In this document: one piece after another, positions 36 through 9,944 of the stretch
Layout of the letters: every line of letters begins with the position of its first letter
How positions within the stretch are numbered: position 1 is the first letter of the stretch
From: Gemmatimonadaceae bacterium
GTDB taxonomy: Bacteria > Gemmatimonadota > Gemmatimonadetes > Gemmatimonadales > Gemmatimonadaceae
DNA: 64,000 bases
Assembly (NCBI GenBank): GCA_013816855.1
Contig: JACDDT010000005.1
Span: 2,345 to 66,344, forward strand
Direction of reading: 5' to 3'
Made by a program: the position numbers and the translations under genes
The notes under the pieces: model-generated
The model's database searches: none
The model's input: the letters and a program-made list of their open reading frames with translations, nothing else
Told to the model about the DNA's origin: nothing

Positions 36-2876
36 GTGACCAAGCTGCTGCCCGCTGACTGGGACCAGCTTTCGGCGATAATTGACGCCGCGCTCGATGC
101 CGCGCCGGCCCAACGCTCATCCATTCTTCGGGACGCAAGCGGCGGCGACGAAGTTCGTCGCGCACAACTCGAGCAAATGCTTGCCGATTGTGAACGCGAC
201 ACGGCGTTCCTCGATCGTCCTGCAGCCGAACGTTTCTCAGAGCTGTTCGACGAAAACGATGAGATTCCGATTCCGGAATCGCTTGGCGGACGTTACCGCA
301 TCGAGCGCGAAATTGGGCGTGGCGGCATGGCGCGGGTATACCTCGCGCAGGACGAAAAGCATTCACGTCAGGTCGCAGTCAAGGTAATCCGGCCGGACCT
401 TGCTGCTTCGCTGGGACACGACCGTTTTCTCCGCGAAATCGGCATTGCCGCACGGCTGCGGCATCCGAACATCATGCCCCTCTTTGATTCCGGTGACGCC
501 GACGGAATCCTCTTCTTCGTCATGCCTTTCGAGGAGGGACAATCCCTGCGCTCACGTCTCGACGGCGAAAATCCGCTGAGTGCTGCCGAACGATTGGCCA
601 CGCTCCGGGATGTTGCACGAGCACTTGCGTACGCGCACGACCAGGGAATCGTTCACCGCGACATAAAGCCTGATAACGTACTCCTCTCCGGGGGCGCGGC
701 AGTCGTCACTGATTTCGGAATCTCGAAAGCGCTGACGGCGGCACAAGGCACGGCTTCCACTGGCACACTGACAAACGCCGGCGCCGGAATTGGAACTCCC
801 GCTTACATGGCACCCGAACAGGCGCTCGGCGATCCGTCTACTGACCGGCGGGCGGATATTTATTCCTTCGGGTGCCTGGCCTATGAAGTGTTCACGGGAC
901 ATCCGCCGTTTCACGGTATGTCGGCGCATGCAACGATCGCCGCGCATGTATCGACTACGCCAGTGCCAATCGCCGACGGTGCAGCCGATGTTCCCGCACG
1001 CGTTGCAATCGTGATAATGCAGTGTCTCGAAAAAATGCCTGAGGCACGGCCGCAAACTGCGCACGAAATCCTCGATCGTCTGGAATCGGCCACTGTCGAC
1101 GGCTACGCGCTACCAGTGCGTGCGGTATCGCCACGCAAACGCATGCTGATCGGTGCAGCCGTTGCAGCCGTTGCTGTAATTGGTGGCATCGTTGCAGCGA
1201 CTAAACTGCTAACCCCTGTGCGTGCACTTTCACTGGGGACATCCACACCCCTGACGGTGGAGGAAGGACTTCAGATCGAAGCCGACATCTCTCCGAATGG
1301 GCGGCTCGTTGCGTACGCGAAGGGGAACTCCAACAAGCTTCGCATCTTCGTACAGAAAATCGGTGGTGGAACTCCATGGCCGCTTTCGCCGGACTCGGAC
1401 GCTGTGGAGCAGATGCCTCGCTGGTCGCCGGACAATGACCAGCTCGTTTTTCTTGCCCGCAACAATGCTTATGTGTCGCCCTCGCTCGGTGGCGTGACAC
1501 GAATGATCGCGAGAGGAAGCGCGGGTGACGGGAGGATTAGATCTGCGTCGTGGTCACCGGCGGGAGATTCACTTGCGATCGTCCGGAATGATTCACTCTT
1601 GGTAAAGCCATCGGAAGGTTCGGGCGGCCGCTTCGTGGGGCGCGGCACTCAGTTGCACTCCTGTGTGTGGTCGCCTGCCGGAAAGTGGATCGCCTGCGTT
1701 TCCGGAAACGTGCTCGCACAGGATCCCGGACCTCTATTTCAAAACCAGGCGCCCACCGCGATACTGGTGTTCCCCGCATCTGGAGGAGCAGCCATCGATG
1801 TTACCGGCAATCGCTTCGAGAACACCGGCCCCGCGTGGTCAGCGGACGGAAAGCTTCTTTGGATTCTGTCCAATCGGGAAGGAACATCGGGGGAGGCCTA
1901 TGCCATCGCAATCGGACGCGATGGACACGCGTCTGGAGCCGCTGTGCGTGTTGGATTGAGCGCGGAATCCATAAGCATGTCGAACAATCGCATAGCTTAC
2001 TCCGTCCCCAGCAGATCAGCAAATATCTGGAGGATTCCAATACCGCGCGGACAGGCCGTATCAACGGCGGCTGCGCAACAGCTCACCTTCGGCAATCAGG
2101 TGATCGAAATCATCAGTGTATCGCGAGACAATCGCTGGCTGGTATTCGACAGCAATTTGCGCGGAAACGCGGACATCTACCGGATGAAGCCGACCGGAGG
2201 CGCAGCTGAGCGTTTAACCGAGGATCCGAACCCAGAGTACACTGGGGAGCTTTCACCGAATAATCGCGAACTTGCATGGCATCGCTGGTTGAACGGAGAG
2301 CGCCACCTCTTTGTGAAAAGCCTCGATAAAGAATCTGAGCAGCAGATATTGCCACATCCTGGGGAACAGACCAGCCCACGGTGGTCGCCCGATGGCACCG
2401 CGATCGCGATATGGAGCCATCAGGACAACGGGGCTGTATTGGTGGTGCGGCGCGGTGCGGACGGCAAGTGGGACAAGAAGGAACGCCAACTGGCAAACGG
2501 GCGGCTTCCGGTCTGGTCGCCAGACGGACGAACGATTGCTTTCGTCCGAATCGATGGAAGCGTTCACGCCATTCCTTCCGACTCCGGCACCGTTCGGACG
2601 CTTTATACGCCACGCCCGCGAAGCCGGGATCCGATCGCCACTTACCTCTTGTGGCGGAACCCGAATACAATATGGCTGATCGGTGACGACGCTTCGGGAC
2701 ACGGCGGAATCTGGGAGTTGGCGCTAGGAACGCAGGCGCTCCGTTTGCTGGTGCGATTCGATCTTCGGCCGGGACAAGCATACGGCCCTGCCTTCGCTAC
2801 GGACGATAACAATATCTTTTTCACGTTAACGGAAAAACTGTCGAACCTCCGGTGGGCCGAGCTCGTGAAGAACTAG
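36..2876 (+). CDS. Membrane Ser/Thr protein kinase (Hanks type) with C-terminal TolB/PD40-like beta-propeller
   Basis: IGRGGMARVYLA, VAVK, HRDIKPDN, DFG and GTPAYMAPEQ motifs; one TM helix (MLIGAAVAAVAVIGGIVAA); repeated xWSPDG/xSPNG motifs; N-terminal helical extension typical of ECF-linked kinases. Confidence 0.93.
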   Translation: MTKLLPADWDQLSAIIDAALDAAPAQRSSILRDASGGDEVRRAQLEQMLADCERDTAFLDRPAAERFSELFDENDEIPIPESLGGRYRIEREIGRGGMARVYLAQDEKHSRQVAVKVIRPDLAASLGHDRFLREIGIAARLRHPNIMPLFDSGDADGILFFVMPFEEGQSLRSRLDGENPLSAAERLATLRDVARALAYAHDQGIVHRDIKPDNVLLSGGAAVVTDFGISKALTAAQGTASTGTLTNAGAGIGTPAYMAPEQALGDPSTDRRADIYSFGCLAYEVFTGHPPFHGMSAHATIAAHVSTTPVPIADGAADVPARVAIVIMQCLEKMPEARPQTAHEILDRLESATVDGYALPVRAVSPRKRMLIGAAVAAVAVIGGIVAATKLLTPVRALSLGTSTPLTVEEGLQIEADISPNGRLVAYAKGNSNKLRIFVQKIGGGTPWPLSPDSDAVEQMPRWSPDNDQLVFLARNNAYVSPSLGGVTRMIARGSAGDGRIRSASWSPAGDSLAIVRNDSLLVKPSEGSGGRFVGRGTQLHSCVWSPAGKWIACVSGNVLAQDPGPLFQNQAPTAILVFPASGGAAIDVTGNRFENTGPAWSADGKLLWILSNREGTSGEAYAIAIGRDGHASGAAVRVGLSAESISMSNNRIAYSVPSRSANIWRIPIPRGQAVSTAAAQQLTFGNQVIEIISVSRDNRWLVFDSNLRGNADIYRMKPTGGAAERLTEDPNPEYTGELSPNNRELAWHRWLNGERHLFVKSLDKESEQQILPHPGEQTSPRWSPDGTAIAIWSHQDNGAVLVVRRGADGKWDKKERQLANGRLPVWSPDGRTIAFVRIDGSVHAIPSDSGTVRTLYTPRPRSRDPIATYLLWRNPNTIWLIGDDASGHGGIWELALGTQALRLLVRFDLRPGQAYGPAFATDDNNIFFTLTEKLSNLRWAELVKN

Positions 2877-2880
2877 CCGC

Positions 2881-3450
2881 ATGCAAGACGACTCAGCGAT
2901 CAGGCCAGACGACCGTTTAACGGGGGATGTCCCGATTCGGGATCACGCGATTCTGGATCAGCTGATTTCACTCGTGTACGACCAGCTACGCGCTATCGCC
3001 CACCGCCAGCTGGCGGGTGGCGAACAAGGCGCAACGCTTTCGACGACTGCGCTCGTGCACGAAGCCTACCTGAAGCTCGCCGATCAATCGCGGGTTGCAT
3101 GGCGGGACGATCCGCATTTCTTCGCGTTGGTGTCTTTAGCGATGCGCCATGTGCTGGTGGATCGTGCACGTGCACGTCTCGCACAAAAAAGGGGTGGCGT
3201 GGCCCGCGCGGTGACATTGGACGAAGGGCACATCGCAAGCGAAGACCAGCCGCAGGCCCTGCTTAACATCAATGATGCTCTTGAAAAACTTGCAGCCATC
3301 GAGCCACGGCTCGCCAAAGTAGTGGAGTGTCGTTTTTTTGGCGGACTGTCCGAAGACGAAACCGCGCAGGCACTCGGCGTGACTGCGCGGACCGTCCAGC
3401 GCGACTGGGCAAAGGCGAGAATGCTCCTCCGTCGCGCGCTCGTGGAATAG
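2881..3450 (+). CDS. ECF-type RNA polymerase sigma factor, kinase-associated (TIGR02999-like)
   Basis: VYDQLRAIAHRQL, STTALVHEAYLKL and region 4 VECRFFGGLSEDETAQALGVTARTVQRDWAKAR; starts 4 nt after the kinase stop. Confidence 0.92.
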   Translation: MQDDSAIRPDDRLTGDVPIRDHAILDQLISLVYDQLRAIAHRQLAGGEQGATLSTTALVHEAYLKLADQSRVAWRDDPHFFALVSLAMRHVLVDRARARLAQKRGGVARAVTLDEGHIASEDQPQALLNINDALEKLAAIEPRLAKVVECRFFGGLSEDETAQALGVTARTVQRDWAKARMLLRRALVE

Positions 3451-3455
3451 AAAAT

Positions 3456-4841
3456 CTATTTTAGCGTCAGTCGGTATTCTGCCGAGTCATAGTTCTCACT
3501 TGTCACGCGCACCGTGTAGAATCCCTCCACCGGCGCAACAAAGGAAATCGTACTGACGTAGAATCGGTTTGAAGCATCGGGATAAGCGGCAATTTCTCCG
3601 CGCGCGTTCAGTAGCACCAGATAATGATTGCTGTAGGAAAGATCAGCGACCTCTGCCGAAAGCTGGTCGCCAGCGCTGAGATGAACCTTGAACTGATCGG
3701 AGGAATTAACGTCATCCTCCCGGCAATCGGTCGACTCGGTTACCTGGTACGTACTCGTTTCACGGGCAGCGAAGGTCGTCTCGCAACCTGTGGTAACTGC
3801 GGATGCAGTTGTCACGGACAGCTGGTACGATCCTGTGACGCGTGGCAGCTTCGAGGACACGATTAGCGTGTATAGTCCCGGCGGAAGAATTGTTTTGATT
3901 TTCTGCTCCACCGTTCCCGCATCTCCAATGCTGCTGGCAACCAAGCCTGTCCCGCGAATTTCCATGTAGGTATCGAATTTCGGCGAGGCCACGCTGAAGA
4001 CGTGCGCGGGGGCACTCAGGAGGACCACAAATTTCTCGTAGTAGACTCCATCGGCCGTGACGCAGCTTCCGGATGACAGTGACTCGGCGTAACGAATTTC
4101 TGGAGAAATCGTTCGGGAATTGGAGCAGCCATAGGAATCAACTAGCGCTATCGCAGTGAATGTCTGTGGATCGAGCCCTTCCGGCGTAGCAATCATGGTT
4201 TGAGTGCGGCTCTCGCCGAGGACCCAGCTTCCGAGAGTGGCCACCCCGGAGGAATCAGAAACGACGGTCGCATTGCTCACAAACCCGCCACCACTGGCAA
4301 CAGCAAACACGACTTTTACGCCCGCCACTGCGTTGCCGTAGGAATCGCTGATTCTTACCTGTGGGCGCACGGAGATCTCGGTTCCTGCACTCGCGCTTTG
4401 ATTGTCGCCGGAATACTTACTGGAACGCGCCGGCGCATCTGCGATCCCCCAGGCTGAAAACAGAATCTTTTCCTGATCATTTAGCCGCGCGCTCAGGACG
4501 TTAGTCCCCGAGACGAGACCCACCCTCCAGCTGCCGACGCGCGCAACACCGTCTACATCGGTCGTGTCGTAAATGCCTGTGGCGGTCCCGCCTCCCTGCT
4601 CGATAGCGAAGACAACAGGAACACCCTTGACCGGCCTGCCGTCCGTGTCGCGGACAATTACAGACGGCAGCTCGCCAACGTCATGGTTCACGACCGCAGC
4701 GAGCGAGGTCGCCGAGGCTGCAGTTATGACGTTGTTTTTCTGTGTAATTGGATTCGGGGCGGACGTGTCAGTGCAAGCGGAAAAGAGCGCGTTACACGCC
4801 AGTAGCGCCAGAATCGTCGGTAGTGAATTTTGTGGAAGCAT
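3456..4841 (-). CDS. Lipoprotein with two Ig-like (Big_1/invasin-like) repeats and two PPC-like beta domains
   Basis: Lipobox FSAC; repeated VxVxDxxGxPVxGVxVVFA...GGG...TxxxGVAxxGSW motif; C-terminal D-x-F/Y-L-x-L...G-x-Y-x-L-x-V repeats; GGAG RBS. Confidence 0.7.
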   Translation of the reverse strand: MLPQNSLPTILALLACNALFSACTDTSAPNPITQKNNVITAASATSLAAVVNHDVGELPSVIVRDTDGRPVKGVPVVFAIEQGGGTATGIYDTTDVDGVARVGSWRVGLVSGTNVLSARLNDQEKILFSAWGIADAPARSSKYSGDNQSASAGTEISVRPQVRISDSYGNAVAGVKVVFAVASGGGFVSNATVVSDSSGVATLGSWVLGESRTQTMIATPEGLDPQTFTAIALVDSYGCSNSRTISPEIRYAESLSSGSCVTADGVYYEKFVVLLSAPAHVFSVASPKFDTYMEIRGTGLVASSIGDAGTVEQKIKTILPPGLYTLIVSSKLPRVTGSYQLSVTTASAVTTGCETTFAARETSTYQVTESTDCREDDVNSSDQFKVHLSAGDQLSAEVADLSYSNHYLVLLNARGEIAAYPDASNRFYVSTISFVAPVEGFYTVRVTSENYDSAEYRLTLK

Positions 4842-4950
4842 GGTAACTCCGGAAGGTGTTGTCCCTGCTTCACAACACGAAAAGACCCGGAGAAACCCGA
4901 CATCGCGGGGCTAGTGATCCCCGCAAGGCGGCCAGAATTAAACTACAACG
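4839..4950 (-). repeat. Copy 1 of duplicated ~105-nt leader (ECF-like promoter, hairpins, RBS, ATG)
   Basis: Core 4885-4916 is 30/32 identical to 6056-6087; similarity continues through GACAACAC and TCCGGAGT to an ATG. Confidence 0.85.
4876..4902 (-). promoter_or_regulatory. Putative ECF sigma promoter TGTCGG-N17-CGTG
   Basis: Same elements and identical 17-nt spacer in both leader copies; adjacent ECF gene. Confidence 0.5.
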
Positions 4951-4979
4951 CCGAACTTTTCCTCAATGAAAGTTCGGCG
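4949..4979 (-). terminator. Probable intrinsic terminator after 5008..5946
   Basis: Perfect 11-bp stem CGCCGAACTTT/AAAGTTCGGCG followed on the minus strand by TTGTAGTTT. Confidence 0.6.
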
Positions 4980-5007
4980 GGCTCCACCAACTTCGAAATC
5001 GGGTGGA

Positions 5008-5946
5008 CTATTGCCCGTGCGGAAACACCCGGCGAAGCGTGATGTTCACACGGTAGCCTTCGGGGCGATTGCGTGCCATGGTTTCCAAATCAACATTCGC
5101 GAATGCGCTCCAGAAGCCCGACGACAGTTGCACTCCCGGTCCAAACGCCACGACGCGTTCCTTGGAATTCGGGATCGAGTTAATACCGAGACGGTGTTCG
5201 GTGAGCTGCTGGAGCACATAGCCGTTCAGTCCGAGGCGAAGCGCCGGAGACATTTCATACGATATTGCATAGTTCGCGTGGACCGCCTGACCGGCTTGGG
5301 TGCTGCCAACCGCAAGCAGAGTAAATGGTGTCGAGTTTTTCGCGTTCCACCGGTAATCGATCCTCCAACTGGTCTCGATTTTCGAGGTCGGAAATATCGT
5401 AAACGCATAGTACGCGAAGGCGCCTCCCGCATTGCTGCCCACGTTGACCGCGCGGGCAGCGGAATAGCTGCCAGTCGGAAGCTCGAAAAGAATCGAAAAA
5501 CGCGAAAAGTATTTTTTGCCGCCCAGACTTTTGCCGGGCCACTCCAGTATCAGTGGACTGACCAGAATATCCCCCGGTCCCGAATTCTTTCCTTTCGGTC
5601 CAAAATCAGTGTTCAAGTCAAGCGATGCGAAGGGAATGAGAAACTCGGCTCCGTAAAATCCGCCGAGTATCTGGTGGGTGGTGATGTGAGCGACGTGAAA
5701 AAGGTTTGCCCACGAATCCACCGAGTTGGCTCCAGGAATAGCGTTGCCTTTGGAGTCGATGAACTTCGACGCGTGATAATGTTCGATTATCACCGGCTCT
5801 AACAAAGAGCCCGGCCCTGCGACACCATCCAGGAAGCTCGTGCCACCCATGTTCACCGGGGGCATCACGACCTGTGCGGCGGCGGTGTGAATTGTAAATG
5901 TGAAAGCAAACGCCAGCGTGCGGAAAAACCGTGGGCTGTTATTCAT
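5008..5946 (-). CDS. Outer-membrane beta-barrel, SphA/phenol-degradation MetA-like transporter family
   Basis: Signal peptide ending AAAQ; N-terminal VNMGGTSFLDG, GDILVSPLILEW, PTGSY...VNVGSN motifs; alternating beta-strand pattern. Confidence 0.75.
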   Translation of the reverse strand: MNNSPRFFRTLAFAFTFTIHTAAAQVVMPPVNMGGTSFLDGVAGPGSLLEPVIIEHYHASKFIDSKGNAIPGANSVDSWANLFHVAHITTHQILGGFYGAEFLIPFASLDLNTDFGPKGKNSGPGDILVSPLILEWPGKSLGGKKYFSRFSILFELPTGSYSAARAVNVGSNAGGAFAYYAFTIFPTSKIETSWRIDYRWNAKNSTPFTLLAVGSTQAGQAVHANYAISYEMSPALRLGLNGYVLQQLTEHRLGINSIPNSKERVVAFGPGVQLSSGFWSAFANVDLETMARNRPEGYRVNITLRRVFPHGQ

Positions 5947-6007
5947 TTTCGGTTCTCACAGTGAGGGGAGCTTCTTGCGCTCACAAGGTAGGGATTAGGT
6001 GACCAAT

Positions 6008-6111
6008 CATCCACTACTCCGGATAAGTGTTGTCTCTACGTGACAACGCGTAAAAACCCGGCGAAACCCGACATCGCGGGTCTAGTGCCCCGCTACAAGG
6101 TAGATACAACG
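6008..6111 (-). repeat. Copy 2 of duplicated ~105-nt leader
   Basis: See copy 1; ends in GGAG RBS plus ATG at 6010. Confidence 0.85.
6047..6073 (-). promoter_or_regulatory. Putative ECF sigma promoter TGTCGG-N17-CGCG
   Basis: Matches the copy 1 promoter with identical spacing. Confidence 0.5.
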
Positions 6112-6120
6112 TCGAAGTGC

Positions 6121-7773
6121 TCAAGCTATTCTCTCCTCAAACCCCCGCGCCGCGAACGTCATCGCCAGCACTAATAGTATGAGCAGCACGCTGTAAGCCG
6201 CAGCCGTCCCAAACGCCAGCGCTCGGAGCTGCGCGAGTATCTCCATCGAGATCGGCCGGTTCGCGTGTGTGAACAGCACCACGCTGGCGACGAACTCTCC
6301 CACTGCCGTCACCGCGGCCAGCAACGCGCCGGCCACTAGTCCCGGCTTCGCAGCGGGAATGATCACGCGCCACATCGTCAACAGCCACGATGCACCAAGC
6401 CCGCGTGCCGCATCTTCAAGCGACGGATCCATCTGCTTGAGCGAGCTCTCCACCGCCGAAGCAACGAGCGGAATGTCGCGGATGAAATACGCCAGCGGGA
6501 GAATCCAGAACGTGCCAACAAGCAGAACTCTGAGCGAGGCGATGTCGTTCCGGTTGAACGTCGCCGCCAAGCCAAGCGCGATCGCCGTAGCGGGAATCGC
6601 CCACGGCAGCGCCACGAGCAGCTCGAGCAGTTTTCGCCCGCTGAATCGTCTCAGCACGATGAGATAAGCTGCCAGAAAGCAGATCACCACATTTGCCGCA
6701 GTCGCGACGAGCGCCATCGAGACGCTGTTCACGATCGGTTTCCACAGTTCCGCCTCGGAGAAGAGCCGCCGATAATTGTCCAGCGTGTACTCGGGCGGTA
6801 GCACCTGCGTCGTCCACGCGCCGTCTCGTGCGAACGACACGAGCACGACCATTAGGTGCGGCAGCACGAGAAGAATCACGACGACGACCGCGCCAATCGC
6901 GGTCAGCGTTTGAAGCCCGCGCGATTTAATCTGCCTTCTCTGCCGGCTGCTCTTCGCCGACAGAGTGTATTTTCGTTTCCTGTCCAGCCACCGGAATAGC
7001 AGCAGTCCCGCGATCGCGCTGATCGCAAGCACCGTCGTCTCTACGTATGCGAGTCCCAGCGCGCCGTTGAGCTTCGACACAAGTATCTGCGTCGAGAGCA
7101 CTCTGATCCCGCCGCCGAAAACGTACGGCGCAGAAAATGACCCGAGCGCGTTCATAAATACGAGCAGCGCCGATCCCGCAATCGCCGGCATCAAGAGCGG
7201 CAGCGTCACACGCCTCAATCGCATCCATCCGCTCGCGCCGAGCCCGGAGGCGGCTTCGTCGAGCGTGGAGTCGAATCGCTCGAGCCCCGCCGAGACGAAG
7301 AGGAAGACGTACACGTACATCGTGTAGGCGTGGACGAAGATGATTGCCGGAACTCCACTGAGACGCCACGGCGCTTCCGGCATCGAGAATACGTGCTGCA
7401 CGGAGCGGGTGACTACTCCGCTTTCACCGTAGAGAAACAGAAACGCAATTACGCCGACCAGTGGCGGGAGCGCGGCGGGAAGCGCGGCTACGGCGCGAAG
7501 CACCTTTCGCCCGGGGAACTCAAATCTTCCCAGCAAAAACGCGAGCGGCACTCCGATCGCCAACGCGGCGACGACCGAGGCAAACGAGATGACGATGCTG
7601 GTCGTGAGTGCTTCCCGGTCCGACGGGCTCGACGCGAACTCCCGCCAGTGCTCGAGACCGTTCTCGAAGCTTCCCGCGATGACCGATACGTTGGGATATA
7701 CCACCGTCCACAACAGCAGCGCGATGACCGGCGTCGCGATCAGCCACGTCTGCTTCCGGTTCTCGTCGTTCAT
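6121..7773 (-). CDS. ABC transporter permease, FbpB/AfuB-like, two membrane modules
   Basis: Two EAA loops (LDEAASGLGAS, LEDAARGLGAS); about 12 TM segments. Confidence 0.9.
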   Translation of the reverse strand: MNDENRKQTWLIATPVIALLLWTVVYPNVSVIAGSFENGLEHWREFASSPSDREALTTSIVISFASVVAALAIGVPLAFLLGRFEFPGRKVLRAVAALPAALPPLVGVIAFLFLYGESGVVTRSVQHVFSMPEAPWRLSGVPAIIFVHAYTMYVYVFLFVSAGLERFDSTLDEAASGLGASGWMRLRRVTLPLLMPAIAGSALLVFMNALGSFSAPYVFGGGIRVLSTQILVSKLNGALGLAYVETTVLAISAIAGLLLFRWLDRKRKYTLSAKSSRQRRQIKSRGLQTLTAIGAVVVVILLVLPHLMVVLVSFARDGAWTTQVLPPEYTLDNYRRLFSEAELWKPIVNSVSMALVATAANVVICFLAAYLIVLRRFSGRKLLELLVALPWAIPATAIALGLAATFNRNDIASLRVLLVGTFWILPLAYFIRDIPLVASAVESSLKQMDPSLEDAARGLGASWLLTMWRVIIPAAKPGLVAGALLAAVTAVGEFVASVVLFTHANRPISMEILAQLRALAFGTAAAYSVLLILLVLAMTFAARGFEERIA

Positions 7774-8837
7774 CCGTCTATGACGGCGACCGCCTTCTCA
7801 CCCGGTACGAGCATCACAGAATCATTTTCGTGATAAGAATGATTCTTGGATTCGACTTCTACAACAGCTCCGTCGCCGAGCCGCACGCGATACATCACGA
7901 GAGAGCCGGTGAATCTCCGCTCCGAGATTTTTCCGCTCAGCCCCTTCGCGCCATTCTCGGCGATCCGCAGCGAATGCGGGCGGAGGACAATGGCCGATTG
8001 TCCCCTTGGCGGCTGCGCACCCGGAGCGTGCGTCGCCTGAAAGAGAATGCTCTGCTCGCCGACCCTCAGCACCGCTGCGGATTCTGTCACCTGCGCGGGC
8101 ACGATCACCGCACGCCCGATGAAGCTCGCCACATCCCGGCTCAGCGGACAGTTGTACAGCTCTTCAGGAGTCCCCGTTTGGAGAAGTTTTCCCTGTTTCA
8201 GTAGGGCGATGCGATCCGCGACCGCGAACGCATCTTCCTGATCGTGGGTCACGAAAAGCGCCGGCACTCCCGCGCTATGCAGCTGCGCGCGCAGATCCTC
8301 GCGCGTTGTCTGCCGCAAAGTCGGATCGAGATTCGACAGCGGCTCATCGAGGAGGAGCGCTTTCGGCTCGATGACGAGGGCGCGCGCCAGCGCGACCCGC
8401 TGCTGCTCGCCGCCGGAGAGATTCTGTACCGCGCGATCGGCTCGGCCCTCCAGCCCGACGCTCGCGAGAACCTCCCGCGCTTTTGCAAGTCGCTCCGTTT
8501 TTCCTACCCCGCGCGCTTCCAATCCGAAGGCAACGTTCTCCACCACCGGCATCTGCGGAAATAGCGCGTAGTGCTGGAACACCATTCCAAAGCCGCGCTT
8601 CTGTGGCGGGAGGCGTGTGATGTCTGCGTCGCCGAGCAGGATCGATCCACTGTCGGGCGACTCGTACCCCGCGACGATGCGGAGCGTCGTCGTTTTCCCC
8701 GATCCCGACGCCCCGATTAGCGCGACCAGCTCGCCGGGGGCAACGGTTAGAGACACGTCGTCGACGGCGACATAATCGCCGAAGCGCTTTCCGATATTCC
8801 TGAGGGTGAGTGCCGCTGCCTGCGGAGCCTTGATCAT
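7770..8837 (-). CDS. ABC transporter ATP-binding subunit with TOBE domain (FbpC/PotA/AfuC-like)
   Basis: Walker A GASGSGKTT, signature LSGGEQQR, Walker B LLLDEP, H-loop VTHDQ. Confidence 0.93.
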   Translation of the reverse strand: MIKAPQAAALTLRNIGKRFGDYVAVDDVSLTVAPGELVALIGASGSGKTTTLRIVAGYESPDSGSILLGDADITRLPPQKRGFGMVFQHYALFPQMPVVENVAFGLEARGVGKTERLAKAREVLASVGLEGRADRAVQNLSGGEQQRVALARALVIEPKALLLDEPLSNLDPTLRQTTREDLRAQLHSAGVPALFVTHDQEDAFAVADRIALLKQGKLLQTGTPEELYNCPLSRDVASFIGRAVIVPAQVTESAAVLRVGEQSILFQATHAPGAQPPRGQSAIVLRPHSLRIAENGAKGLSGKISERRFTGSLVMYRVRLGDGAVVEVESKNHSYHENDSVMLVPGEKAVAVIDG

Positions 8838-8876
8838 CTCGCTCGAAATTACCCGATTCGAGCGGATACGACAGTC

Positions 8877-9944
8877 CTATTTTCCGCCGCGGTTCCGGAT
8901 GTTGGCGTCCCAATACTTCATCCACTCGTCGAGGTGGGCAGCCATTATCTCGCGGTCCACCGGCATCGGCTTGATCTGCTTCAGCGCGTCCTGAATCCAC
9001 CCCGGAAGCTGCGCGGCAGGAATGTCCTTCCGTGCGGGAATGCGGAGAAACTGCTTCGCCGACTCGATCAGCACGTCCGGTCGAGTGACGTACTCGTAGT
9101 ACAGCTTCGACTCGGCGGGATGATGCGTGCCCTTCACAATGGCGATACCGTCCACCAGCAGAGGAGTCCCGCTTTCCGGGATCACGTACTTTACGGGAAT
9201 CTTCGTCCGCTGTTCGAGCGTGGCGATGTCGGGCATGTCCCACATCGTGACCGTGCCTTCCTGCCGGCCTATCTTCTGATAGAGAATCGTCGGATTCAAA
9301 ACGTACTCGCGCGTGTTCGCGTCGAGACGCCGCAGCCACGCATATCCCGAATCCGGTTTCCCCGTCTGCTGCATCGAGCGAACCATGATAGCGCCGAAGA
9401 TCGCGCGCATCGTGCCCGACGCGATCGGATCGCGGATGACGACTTTCCCTTTCCACTTCGGATCGAGCAGCTGATCCCAATCCTTCGGTGCATCTGCTTC
9501 CGTTACGGCCTGGGAGTTGTAGGCGATGACTTCGGGAGTCAGATACGTCCCGAACCAATTGTCCGACGCGTCCTTCCCTTCCCCATCGATCGCAGAGGCC
9601 CACGTCGGCTTGTAGGGCTCGAGAAGATTTTGCTTCGCGCCCTTGTCGAACGTTTCCGCCGGCGCACCGAACCACACGTCAGCCTGCGGGTTCGCCGCCT
9701 CTGCCCGAACACGATCGAGAATCTCCTGCGAACCCATATCCACCCACTGAACGTCTATGTTCGGATGTGCTTTCTCAAACCTCTTCTCGAGGAAATCGAG
9801 CAGCTCCTTCCCATGCGGCGAATAGACAGTGAGGACGATGCGCTTGTCGCTGCTGCACGCCACCGCGCCTGCGATCGCAAATGCACCGATGGCTGCGCGT
9901 AGAAGAGAGCGCATGCGCATTCTGTCCGGGAAGCGATGCATCAT
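8877..9944 (-). CDS. ABC solute-binding lipoprotein (AfuA/FbpA-like fold)
   Basis: Lipobox AVAC; NPQADVWFG, PKDWDQLLDPKWKGKV, DPIASGT, IPESGT motifs; ATGA overlap with upstream gene. Confidence 0.88.
   Translation of the reverse strand: MMHRFPDRMRMRSLLRAAIGAFAIAGAVACSSDKRIVLTVYSPHGKELLDFLEKRFEKAHPNIDVQWVDMGSQEILDRVRAEAANPQADVWFGAPAETFDKGAKQNLLEPYKPTWASAIDGEGKDASDNWFGTYLTPEVIAYNSQAVTEADAPKDWDQLLDPKWKGKVVIRDPIASGTMRAIFGAIMVRSMQQTGKPDSGYAWLRRLDANTREYVLNPTILYQKIGRQEGTVTMWDMPDIATLEQRTKIPVKYVIPESGTPLLVDGIAIVKGTHHPAESKLYYEYVTRPDVLIESAKQFLRIPARKDIPAAQLPGWIQDALKQIKPMPVDREIMAAHLDEWMKYWDANIRNRGGK

What the first reader, a model, noticed from the sequence alone, without database searches (positions are those of the whole stretch)
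4839..6111. Duplicated ~105-nt leader that may reveal the ECF target promoter
Seen: two copies (4839-4950, 6008-6111) flank the SphA-like gene, each upstream of a minus-strand gene. Both keep a GCGGG-CACTAG-CCCGC hairpin, TGTCGG-N17-CG(T/C)GTTGT, a GTTGT/ACAAC hairpin with a variable loop, and TCCGGAGT-N-ATG. Inference: these are cognate -35/-10 elements of the neighbouring phospho-ECF, defining a local regulon of exported proteins. A structured cis-regulatory RNA is the alternative. It matches no riboswitch I recall.
Basis: partly seen in the sequence, partly recalled or inferred. Interest (0 to 1): 0.75.

Follow-up and report, generated by a model that had tools for sequence, protein, structure and literature searches.

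The report
Duplicated leader with candidate ECF promoter
A roughly 60-base control sequence sits in front of a surface-lipoprotein gene next to a kinase-controlled sigma factor in a few soil Gemmatimonadaceae, was recently copied in front of the neighbouring outer-membrane channel gene, and most likely holds the promoter that this sigma factor reads, though this is untested.

Summary
The two copies are real: 4950-4839 and 6111-6008 on the minus strand, 85% identical over 61 nt, and the only two in the 2.47-Mb genome. There is no Rfam match.

Orthologous loci show a shorter functional unit, a ~58-nt core: ATGTCGGG-N16-CGYGTTGT-loop-ACAACAC-CCGGAGT. It precedes the Big_1 lipoprotein gene in every locus that keeps the kinase/ECF43-like sigma pair. 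It stays about 93% identical where four-fold sites differ by 35-64% and the flanking intergenic DNA cannot be aligned.

Copy B is a lineage-specific duplication. It was placed directly upstream of the MetA/SphA-like gene's own conserved sigma70-type promoter (TGGAYG-N17-TACCTT). Its "ATG" lies inside that promoter's -35 hexamer and is not a start codon.

My best reading, at about 0.5, is an ECF-type promoter, TGTCGGG-N16-CGTG, close in form to the ECF41 signature. It has a fixed spacer in all copies, a diverged counterpart in a paralogous module (contig C88), and a third exact site before another Big_1 lipoprotein gene (contig C164).

The nested inverted repeats that hide the Shine-Dalgarno sequence may silence read-through transcripts, or the whole element may be a structured 5'UTR (about 0.25). 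Covariation is too thin to decide, and no RNA data could be reached.

The parts
4839..4950 (-).
4846..4903 (-). Conserved core of copy A (ATGTCGGG...CCGGAGTT), the part shared with all orthologous loci
   Evidence: about 93% identical to L114/L118 where four-fold sites differ by 35-64%
4896..4902 (-). Candidate -35 element TGTCGGG (copy A)
   Evidence: Invariant in 6 of 7 copies; changed to TCTCGGG only in L137, where the downstream gene is a pseudogene
4874..4879 (-). Candidate -10 element CGTGTT (copy A), 17 nt after TGTCGG; also the 5' arm of hairpin P3
   Evidence: compare the ECF41 signature TGTCACA-N16-CGTC/TGTT (PMC3426412)
4856..4878 (-). Inverted repeat P3, GTGTTGT-(8-9 nt variable loop)-ACAACAC
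   Evidence: MFE and RNAalifold; one G-C to A-U double change in L137 and one U-G in L113 copy B
4886..4892 (-). CTCCGGG, complementary to the Shine-Dalgarno region (5' arm of P2); lies inside the candidate promoter spacer
4847..4853 (-). TCCGGAG, containing the Shine-Dalgarno GGAG (4850-4847); 3' arm of P2
   Evidence: GGAG paired with probability above 0.97 in long transcripts
4905..4924 (-). Upstream hairpin GCGGGG-loop-CCCCGC (copy A); clade-specific and not part of the conserved core
4950..4978 (-). Terminator-like hairpin after the MetA-like gene (GCCGAACTTT-loop-AAAGTTCGGC); its 3' arm marks the 5' edge of the duplicated segment
6008..6111 (-).
   Evidence: absent in L114 and L137
6016..6074 (-). 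Core of copy B (TGTCGG 6073-6068, CGCGTT 6050-6045, hairpin 6049-6027, CCGGAG 6022-6017)
5985..6013 (-). Sigma70-type promoter of the MetA/SphA-like gene: TGGATG (6013-6008), 17-nt spacer, TACCTT (5990-5985)
   Evidence: T(G/T)GA(C/T)(G/C)-N17-TACCTT found in 6 orthologous loci down to 67% protein identity, with a TAGCTT variant in a seventh
3456..4841 (-). Big_1-domain lipoprotein gene, the ancestral gene served by the element
5008..5946 (-). PF13557 (MetA-pathway/SphA-like) outer-membrane channel gene, served by copy B in this lineage
2881..3450 (+). ECF43-like sigma factor (PF07638; STTA motif in region 2.2)
   Evidence: PMC8999054
36..2876 (+). Ser/Thr protein kinase with a PD40/beta-propeller sensor domain, presumed activator of the sigma factor

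Best explanation
The conserved ~58-nt core is the cis-regulatory unit of the Big_1 lipoprotein gene. That gene belongs to a four-gene module: Ser/Thr kinase, ECF43-like sigma, Big_1 lipoprotein and PF13557 outer-membrane channel.

Most likely the core holds the promoter read by the neighbouring phosphorylation-activated sigma factor: -35 TGTCGGG, 16 nt, -10 CGTG(TT). Transcription would then start in the variable stretch about 6-9 nt downstream and give a 5'UTR of roughly 28-30 nt with GGAG as ribosome-binding site.

The two nested inverted repeats are CTCCGGG/TCCGGAG and GTGTTGT/ACAACAC. Their 5' halves lie in the spacer and the -10 region, so they would be present only in transcripts that enter from upstream. 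There they pair with and hide the Shine-Dalgarno sequence. Only sigma-initiated transcripts would be translated well, as in the fold-back inhibition described for IS10.

In the common ancestor of this genome and L113, a ~105-nt piece carrying the element was duplicated. It landed directly upstream of the channel gene's own sigma70-type promoter and added the same input to that gene.

Shown: the conservation, the synteny, the fixed spacing, the duplication history and the potential pairing.
Inferred: the promoter function, the sigma dependence, the start site and the role of the pairing.
For: 1. Synteny. MetA-like -> Big_1 <- ECF <- kinase is kept in L113, L114-117 and L118, with the core directly before Big_1 in each.

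2. Selection. The core is about 93% identical between clades whose four-fold sites differ by 0.35-0.64. The adjoining intergenic DNA cannot be aligned, and conservation begins 1-3 nt upstream of TGTCGG.

3. Form. TGTCGGG-N16-CGTG(TT) parallels the experimentally defined ECF41 signature TGTCACA-N16(+/-1)-CGTC/TGTT, which has a 22-23-nt UTR (PMC3426412). The spacer length is invariant in 7 copies.

4. Paralogue. The genome's only other ECF43-like module (contig C88) has a collinear, diverged leader before its Big_1-type lipoprotein gene. An ungapped alignment gives TGGCTG-N17-CGGTGT, as expected if promoter and sigma co-diverged.

5. Third site. GATGTCGG-N17-CGTGTT occurs at C164:4694-4722. It is intergenic, 59 nt before a Big_1+RCC1 lipoprotein gene, with an unrelated spacer and no hairpin. 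The chance expectation is 0.2 per genome for the 8+6-nt pattern.

6. No room for another promoter. In L114 the whole intergenic region is 119 nt and no other conserved promoter-like element exists. In copy A the core runs up to the start codon, so no promoter fits downstream of it.

7. Copy B. It abuts a complete, conserved sigma70-type promoter. That placement suits an added upstream promoter and does not suit a 5'UTR of that promoter's transcript.

8. L137. Where Big_1 is a pseudogene and the kinase/sigma genes are not found downstream on the short contig, both hexamers carry substitutions (TCTCGG, CATG).

9. Pairing. In long transcripts GGAG is paired with probability above 0.97. Transcripts starting in the loop have only weak structure, -4 to -8 kcal/mol.
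Against:
- No ECF43 promoter consensus was found in the literature searched, so the hexamers cannot be matched to a known specificity.
- The 17-nt spacer and the 25 nt downstream of the '-10' are as invariant as the hexamers. That needs the extra fold-back assumption or another function.
- The one compensatory change and the variable loop sizes suggest the 5' arm of P3 is used as RNA, which fits a start site upstream of it.
- The C164 site is a post hoc find. The bare 6+6-nt pattern is expected 1.6 times per genome by chance.
- No motif lies upstream of the kinase-sigma operon.
- All orthologous copies come from one narrow clade, so the sequence diversity is small.
- The closest sigma orthologues in species representatives have other neighbours.
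Confidence: 0.5

Rival explanations
1. The whole element is a structured 5'UTR or intercistronic leader, transcribed from a promoter further upstream or by read-through from the MetA-like gene. Helix P2, closed by hairpin P3, masks the Shine-Dalgarno sequence. An unknown signal (temperature, a protein, a small RNA or a ligand) opens it. TGTCGG...CGTG would then only be part of the RNA.
For: - RNAalifold, given no structure, returns H0+P2+P3, and 94% of cells pair versus 34-56% when the partners are slid.
- All A-type copies fold this way as the minimum-energy structure, and GGAG is paired with probability above 0.97.
- Stems are invariant while loops vary in sequence and length (7-9 nt).
- There is one G-C to A-U double change (L137), one U-A to U-G change, and several C-G to U-G changes in H0.
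- The spacer and the downstream segment are as conserved as the hexamers.
- Sigma70-like hexamers can be read upstream of both window copies (TTGAGG-N18-TTTAAT; TTGAGC-N16-TACCTT; read). L114 has no terminator between the MetA-like gene and Big_1.
Against: - Covariation is not significant: 129 of 500 shuffles do as well.
- Folding z-scores are only -0.6 to -2.6.
- Copy B has a G-A mismatch in P2 and does not fold that way. It also lies upstream of the start site of the gene's own promoter, so it would not be in that mRNA.
- In the C88 paralogue the homologous fold is 10 kcal/mol above the minimum-energy structure, with pair probabilities of 0.02 or less.
- There is no Rfam match.
- The upstream promoter candidates are not conserved in L114 or L118.
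- A ligand riboswitch tied to one gene in a few genomes would be unusual.
Confidence: 0.25
2. The element is a transcription terminator or attenuator. Alternative short GC helices (GCGGGG:CCCCGC, CCCG:CGGG, CGGG:CCGG) end in a U-run (GGGUUUUUUCG). In copy B it would end the upstream ABC-transporter operon.
For: - The terminator scan flags TCGGGTTTCTCCGG+GTCTTTTCGT at 4900-4887.
- The U5-6 tract is kept in all 7 copies.
- In copy B the T-to-G change that breaks P2 extends an 8-bp helix followed by UUUUUA, seen in the minimum-energy fold.
- No other terminator separates the ABC permease gene from the MetA-like promoter.
Against: - The A-type stem has 5 pairs including 2 G-U, far too weak for intrinsic termination.
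- Terminator-like hits in the region are no more frequent than in shuffles: 4 versus 3.4.
- It does not explain conservation of the 35 nt downstream of the U-run.
- The C88 paralogue has no U-run.
Confidence: 0.07
3. The inverted repeats are operator half-sites for a dimeric DNA-binding regulator that acts on a promoter in or next to the element.
For: There are two perfect palindromic pairs (CTCCGG/CCGGAG and GTGTTGT/ACAACAC), and copy B sits just upstream of a -35 hexamer, where activators bind.
Against: Half-site spacing varies (7, 8 or 9 nt, plus 17 nt in the paralogue), which dimeric DNA binders do not tolerate. The outer pair is 40 bp apart. No regulator gene other than the kinase/sigma pair is conserved in the module.
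Confidence: 0.05
4. The similarity is only the trace of a recent local duplication and has no function.
For: Copy B exists only in the window and L113. These two genomes are a recombination mosaic with blocks of 93-100% identity, so the conservation of copy B alone proves little.
Against: Copy A's core is kept in L114 and L118 at about 93% identity against 35-64% four-fold divergence, with unalignable flanks. A collinear diverged version exists in the C88 paralogue.
Confidence: 0.03

Closest known systems
ECF41-dependent promoters (TGTCACA-N16-CGTC/TGTT; Wecke et al. 2012, PMC3426412)
   Same: Both have a bipartite motif that begins with TGTC in the -35, a 16-nt gap to a CGT-type -10, a short UTR with a ribosome-binding site, and a single neighbouring target gene.
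   Different: The sigma here is ECF43-like (PF07638, STTA motif, kinase partner), not ECF41 with its fused C-terminal domain. The -35 reads TGTCGGG. The target gene is convergent with the sigma operon, not in an operon with it. Spacer and UTR are sequence-conserved and self-complementary. Function is untested.
ECF43 phospho-sigma systems (EcfP/PknT of Vibrio parahaemolyticus; EcfK/PknS of Xanthomonas citri; PMC8999054, PMC13147305)
   Same: The sigma lacks the acidic DAED motif and carries STTA, the same letters as EcfP. A Hanks-type kinase gene is adjacent, and there is no anti-sigma gene.
   Different: This is a different phylum (Gemmatimonadota). The kinase has a PD40/beta-propeller sensor. 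The putative targets are a Big_1 lipoprotein and a PF13557 channel, not polymyxin-resistance or type VI secretion genes. I found no published ECF43 promoter consensus to compare with.
Fold-back inhibition of IS10 transposase translation (Davis, Simons and Kleckner 1985; cited from my own knowledge, not checked here)
   Same: A sequence upstream of the element's own start site is complementary to the ribosome-binding site. Transcripts entering from outside are therefore translationally silent, while transcripts from the internal promoter are not.
   Different: This is a chromosomal regulon gene, not a transposon. The complementary strands would lie inside the promoter spacer and the -10 element. 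Neither the internal start site nor the silencing is shown.
Shine-Dalgarno-sequestering 5'UTRs (RNA thermometers, translational riboswitches)
   Same: An anti-SD strand pairs with GGAG, and the pairing is stabilised by an enclosed hairpin directly before the start codon.
   Different: There is no Rfam match, no ligand-pocket-like conserved junction, a very narrow distribution, no significant covariation, and the duplicated copy is not in front of a start codon.

Membership tests
ECF sigma-dependent promoter | Bipartite -35/-10 motif with a fixed 16-17-nt spacer, conserved across orthologous target genes | tested here: met
   TGTCGG-N17-CG(Y)GTT is present in 6 of 7 distinct copies, and the spacer length is invariant in all 7. 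The exception is the L137 remnant before a pseudogene, which reads TCTCGG/CATGTT.
ECF sigma-dependent promoter | The motif recurs at other regulon members with unrelated surrounding sequence | tested here: inconclusive
   There is one further exact site (C164:4694-4722, before a Big_1+RCC1 lipoprotein gene) and one 1-mismatch site (C125:16008-16036, before a small exported protein). The chance expectation is 0.2-1.6 per genome.
ECF sigma-dependent promoter | Transcription start about 6-10 nt downstream of the -10 element | not testable with these tools
ECF sigma-dependent promoter | Activity depends on the cognate sigma factor | not testable with these tools
   This needs a reporter assay or in vitro transcription.
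ECF sigma-dependent promoter | Autoregulation: the same motif upstream of the sigma operon (common in ECF groups but not universal) | tested here: not met
   No site with at most one mismatch per hexamer lies upstream of the kinase-sigma operon in the window genome or in L114.
ECF43 (phosphorylation-activated ECF sigma) | Sigma2/sigma4 ECF architecture | tested here: met
   PF07638 at 1.3e-44, plus Sigma70_r4_2.
ECF43 (phosphorylation-activated ECF sigma) | DAED of region 2.2 replaced by uncharged residues with a conserved Thr (STTA/QTTA) | tested here: met
   The protein reads ...GATLSTTALVHEAYLKL.... The motif is as described in PMC8999054 and PMC13147305.
ECF43 (phosphorylation-activated ECF sigma) | Adjacent Hanks-type Ser/Thr kinase and no anti-sigma gene | tested here: met
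   Pkinase at 1.4e-47 directly upstream; the pair is kept in the orthologous loci.
Known cis-regulatory RNA / riboswitch (Rfam) | Match to a curated covariance model | tested here: not met
   A cmscan of 3000-9000 at E up to 10 gave only a chance atpB hit elsewhere, at 3633-3732.
Known cis-regulatory RNA / riboswitch (Rfam) | Secondary structure supported by covariation | tested here: inconclusive
   94% of cells pair, but there is only 1 compensatory pair and 129 of 500 shuffles do as well. The homologous fold is disfavoured in the C88 paralogue.
Known cis-regulatory RNA / riboswitch (Rfam) | Occurrence across many genomes and genes | tested here: not met
   Absent from 60 relatives and 401 family genomes by BLAST, from 60 relatives by model R1, and from the pattern scans of genome and metagenome collections.
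Intrinsic terminator / attenuator | Stable GC-rich stem followed directly by a U-run | tested here: inconclusive
   The U-run is conserved, but the A-type stem has only 5 pairs with 2 G-U. Copy B can form an 8-bp stem.
Miniature mobile element (MITE/REP) | Many dispersed copies, terminal inverted repeats, target-site duplication | tested here: not met
   Only two copies exist, 1.17 kb apart. The 9-nt CTACCTTGT repeat flanking copy B is explained by the TACCTT -10 box.
Fold-back masking of read-through transcripts (IS10-type) | A segment upstream of the internal start site is complementary to the ribosome-binding site | tested here: met
   CTCCGGG (4892-4886) pairs with TCCGGAG (4853-4847) in all A-type copies.
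Fold-back masking of read-through transcripts (IS10-type) | An internal promoter starts transcription between the two complementary segments | not testable with these tools
   This depends on start-site mapping.

The most novel reading that the evidence does not exclude
The promoter of a phosphorylation-activated ECF43-type sigma is built into a translational insulator. Its spacer and -10 element double as the anti-Shine-Dalgarno and hairpin strands. Read-through transcripts from the constitutively expressed upstream gene are therefore folded shut, and only sigma-initiated transcripts, which lack those strands, are translated. The whole cassette is portable and was recently copied to recruit a second gene to the kinase's output.
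Probability: 0.2. Interest if true: 0.6.

Novelty: new member of a known kind. Interest (0 to 1): 0.4.

Why it matters
Kinase-activated (ECF43-type) sigma factors are widespread. Their target promoters and regulons are known for only a couple of proteobacteria, and none are known in Gemmatimonadota.

If the core is the cognate promoter, it gives three things:
- A concrete, testable -35/-10 pair for one such sigma.
- A minimal regulon of surface Ig-like lipoproteins plus a hydrophobic-compound channel.
- A caught-in-the-act case of regulon growth by duplication of a promoter cassette.

The overlap of promoter elements with an SD-masking fold would be an unusual but not unprecedented design. Set against this, the element is confined to a handful of uncultured genomes, and nothing here is experimentally anchored.

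Tried and rejected
1. Rfam scan of 3000-9000 at E up to 10: nothing relevant.

2. BLAST of copy A in 60 relatives. All hits had E above 0.02; I read four of them and they were terminators or coding DNA. BLAST of the L114 core in 401 family genomes found only the own genome.

3. Pattern scans:
- GATGTCGGGTTTCNCCGGG in genome contigs gave 40 hits, none sharing the downstream hairpin.
- TGTCGGGTTTCNCCGGGTNTTT in genome contigs gave 11 unrelated hits, mostly Pseudomonas.
- The same pattern in metagenome contigs gave 3 hits that do not show the rest of the element.

4. Covariance model R1 on 60 relatives: only weak hits (best E 0.003), and the four I read looked like coding DNA. It did not recover the C88 paralogue either.

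5. Synteny around the closest sigma orthologues in species representatives (G002, G019, G029, G016): the neighbours differ and there is no Big_1 or MetA-like gene.

6. More distant Big_1 homologues (P0039, P0042, and ten paralogues of various lengths in relatives): other contexts and no leader.

7. More distant MetA-like orthologues (L138, L139, L142, L178, L179): no leader, although two again sit next to Ser/Thr kinase genes.

8. The C88 intergenic region in relatives is not conserved. The C164 lipoprotein has no orthologue in relatives, and its nearest metagenomic homologue (49% identity) has a sigma70-type promoter instead.

9. Literature searches for an ECF43, EcfP or EcfK promoter consensus found none in the library.

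11. The idea that the flanking CTACCTTGT repeat marks a mobile-element target-site duplication was rejected: the downstream copy is the -10 box of a conserved promoter.

12. Using the window-versus-L113 comparison as evidence of selection on copy B was rejected, because those two genomes are a recombination mosaic.

Full report
**Observation**

On the minus strand, copy A (4950-4839) ends at the start codon of a 461-aa Big_1-domain lipoprotein gene (3456-4841). Copy B (6111-6008) lies between the stop of an ABC permease gene (6121) and a PF13557 MetA/SphA-like outer-membrane channel gene (5008-5946).

The repeat finder gives 85% identity over 61 nt. BLAST against the 2.47-Mb genome finds these two copies only (E 1.5e-16), and degenerate pattern scans find no other extended copy. 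No Rfam family matches.

**Context**

The genes convergent with the lipoprotein gene are a 946-aa Hanks-type kinase with PD40 repeats (36-2876) and a 189-aa PF07638 sigma factor (2881-3450). The sigma reads LSTTALVHEAYLKL where ordinary ECFs have DAED. This is the same STTA motif as EcfP, the model ECF43 sigma activated by threonine phosphorylation (PMC8999054). The organism is an uncultured Gemmatimonadaceae (source names).

**Relatives**

The element is absent from 60 relatives and 401 genomes of the family by BLAST. It is absent from 60 relatives by a covariance model, and from the public genome and metagenome collections scanned by exact pattern.

Orthologous loci came only through the proteins:
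- L113: Big_1 81% identical.
- L114-117: one sequence, Big_1 58%, sigma 87%, kinase 78%, channel 84%.
- L118: Big_1 56%.
- L137: channel 84%.

L114-117 keep MetA-like -> Big_1 <- sigma <- kinase. L113 and L118 are short contigs that show the parts of this arrangement they cover.

**What is conserved**

A ~58-nt core is nearly invariant directly before Big_1 in L113, L114 and L118: (C)ATGTCGGGTTTCTCCGGGTTTTTTCGTGTTGTGAAGYAGGACAACACTTTTCCGGAGTT. It corresponds to window 4903-4846.

Four-fold degenerate sites between these genomes differ by 0.35-0.38 in the sigma and channel genes and by 0.61-0.64 in Big_1. The intergenic DNA just upstream of the core cannot be aligned. The core is therefore under purifying selection, and the conserved block begins 1-3 nt before TGTCGG.

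**History of copy B**

L114 and L137 have no leader copy upstream of the channel gene; only the window and L113 do.

Downstream of copy B, all channel-gene orthologues down to 67% identity share T(G/T)GA(C/T)(G/C)-N17-TACCTT, 27-45 nt before the start codon. This is a sigma70-type promoter, at window 6013-5985. The 9-codon frame it opens is not conserved as a peptide (MIGHLIPTL versus MIGRRNRTL).

Copy B is thus a recent ~105-nt duplicate, set down immediately upstream of an existing promoter. Its 5' edge lies in the 3' arm of the terminator-like hairpin that follows the channel gene. The window and L113 are a recombination mosaic with blocks of 93-100% identity, so the conservation of copy B between them says little.

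**Promoter reading**

TGTCGGG-N16-CGTG(TT) has the form of an ECF promoter. It is closest to the mapped ECF41 signature TGTCACA-N16(+/-1)-CGTC/TGTT, which has a 22-23-nt UTR (PMC3426412). A start in the variable stretch after the -10 would leave a UTR of about 28-30 nt with GGAG. The evidence:
- The spacing is invariant in all seven distinct copies.
- In L137, Big_1 is reduced to a pseudogene (stop at codon 6) and the kinase/sigma genes are not found downstream on the short contig. There both hexamers carry substitutions.
- The genome has only one other ECF43-like sigma, on contig C88. It too has a kinase and a convergent Big_1-type lipoprotein gene. That gene is preceded by a collinear, diverged leader: GTGTTG-GAAGTAG (p about 0.005 against shuffles), GGGACGAACACC and CCGGGAGTT. 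An ungapped alignment puts TGGCTG-N17-CGGTGT opposite the two hexamers.
- A third exact site, GATGTCGG-N17-CGTGTT, lies at C164:4694-4722. It is intergenic and 59 nt before a 700-aa Big_1+RCC1 lipoprotein gene, with an unrelated spacer and no hairpin.
- Markov-3 simulation expects 1.6 chance sites per genome for the 6+6-nt pattern and 0.2 for the 8+6-nt pattern. This is suggestive but post hoc.
- A 1-mismatch site precedes a small exported protein on C125.
- No site lies upstream of the kinase-sigma operon.

**Structure reading**

Minimum-energy folds of all A-type copies, and RNAalifold given no structure, return three helices:
- a short 5' helix, H0;
- P2, CUCCGGG/UCCGGAG, which buries the Shine-Dalgarno sequence;
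- the enclosed hairpin P3, GUGUUGU/ACAACAC.

94% of cells pair, against 34-56% when the 3' partners are slid. But only one pair shows a double change (G-C to A-U in L137), and 129 of 500 column shuffles reach the same score. Folding z-scores are -0.6 to -2.6. Copy B has a G-A mismatch in P2 and folds differently. In the C88 paralogue the homologous fold lies 10 kcal/mol above the minimum. The structure is plausible but unproven.

What a plain promoter does not explain is that the spacer and the 25 nt after the '-10' are as invariant as the hexamers.

**Synthesis**

The two readings can be joined. If transcription starts in the P3 loop, the 5' arms of P2 and P3 are not in the sigma-initiated mRNA, whose remaining structure is weak (-4 to -8 kcal/mol). 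Any transcript arriving from the upstream channel gene carries those arms, and its GGAG is paired with probability above 0.97. This is the logic of fold-back inhibition in IS10 (cited from my own knowledge). It would keep a kinase-gated gene silent despite read-through, and it accounts for the whole conserved block.

My estimates:
- About 0.5 that an ECF-type promoter lies in the core, of which about 0.2 is the combined design.
- 0.25 for a pure 5'UTR riboregulator.
- 0.07 for a terminator or attenuator. The U-run is conserved but the stem is very weak.
- 0.05 for an operator, since the variable half-site spacing argues against it.
- 0.03 for no function.

**Limits**

All copies come from one narrow clade. 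No ECF43 promoter consensus was found in the papers held.

**Verdict**

The element is a new member of a known kind (a candidate ECF promoter cassette), with an unusual possible twist. Interest is moderate.

Noticed in passing
window 5985-6013 (minus strand): A sigma70-type promoter, TGGATG-N17-TACCTT, precedes the MetA/SphA-like channel gene. It is conserved as T(G/T)GA(C/T)(G/C)-N17-TACCTT in six orthologous loci down to 67% protein identity, with a TAGCTT variant in a seventh. The 40 nt of UTR after it (TGTGAG...CTGTGAGRACC) are also conserved.
   Followed up: partly
own genome contig C88:18556-27894 (outside the window; L174): A second ECF43-like sigma -> kinase module lies here. It is convergent with two Big_1/PD40 lipoprotein genes and a TonB-dependent-receptor-like gene. 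The first lipoprotein gene (start 24509, minus strand) has a diverged but collinear version of the leader, with a 17-nt hairpin insert.
   Followed up: partly
own genome contig C164:4694-4722 (minus strand; L196): An exact GATGTCGG-N17-CGTGTT site lies in an AT-rich intergenic region, 59 nt before a 700-aa Big_1+RCC1 lipoprotein gene. It is a possible third target of the same sigma. A 1-mismatch site at C125:16008-16036 precedes a small exported protein.
   Followed up: partly
L137:1990-2250: In this relative the Big_1 gene is a short pseudogene (stop at codon 6, then truncated), and no kinase or sigma gene is seen in the ~380 nt that remain downstream. The leader remnant persists with changes in both hexamers, plus one double change that keeps the hairpin.
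   Followed up: partly
window 3350-6560 versus L113: Identity to L113 alternates between blocks of 100% (6520-6361, 4840-4681, 3440-3361) and blocks of 70-85% (most of the channel gene; 4960-4881). This indicates recombination between related strains inside this locus.
   Followed up: no
L037 (G019:C142) 1536-5937; L179; L139: PF13557 channel genes lie next to other Ser/Thr kinase genes in several relatives, and in L037 next to an ECF43-like sigma gene as well. L037 has channel -> sigma -> kinase in one direction. In L179 a kinase-like ORF appears to start about 49 nt after the channel gene. This hints at a recurrent functional link between this channel family and such kinases.
   Followed up: no
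window 36-3450 versus L109, L111, L112: Gene order is kinase -> sigma in the window and its close orthologues, but sigma -> kinase in the nearest orthologous pairs of species-representative genomes.
   Followed up: no
window 5981-6010 (minus strand): A 9-codon upstream frame is opened by the ATG inside the -35 hexamer and closed by the TGA just after the -10 box. It has the same length in L113 but a different peptide. It is absent in L137, and L114 has an ATG in a different position and frame. It is probably incidental.
   Followed up: partly
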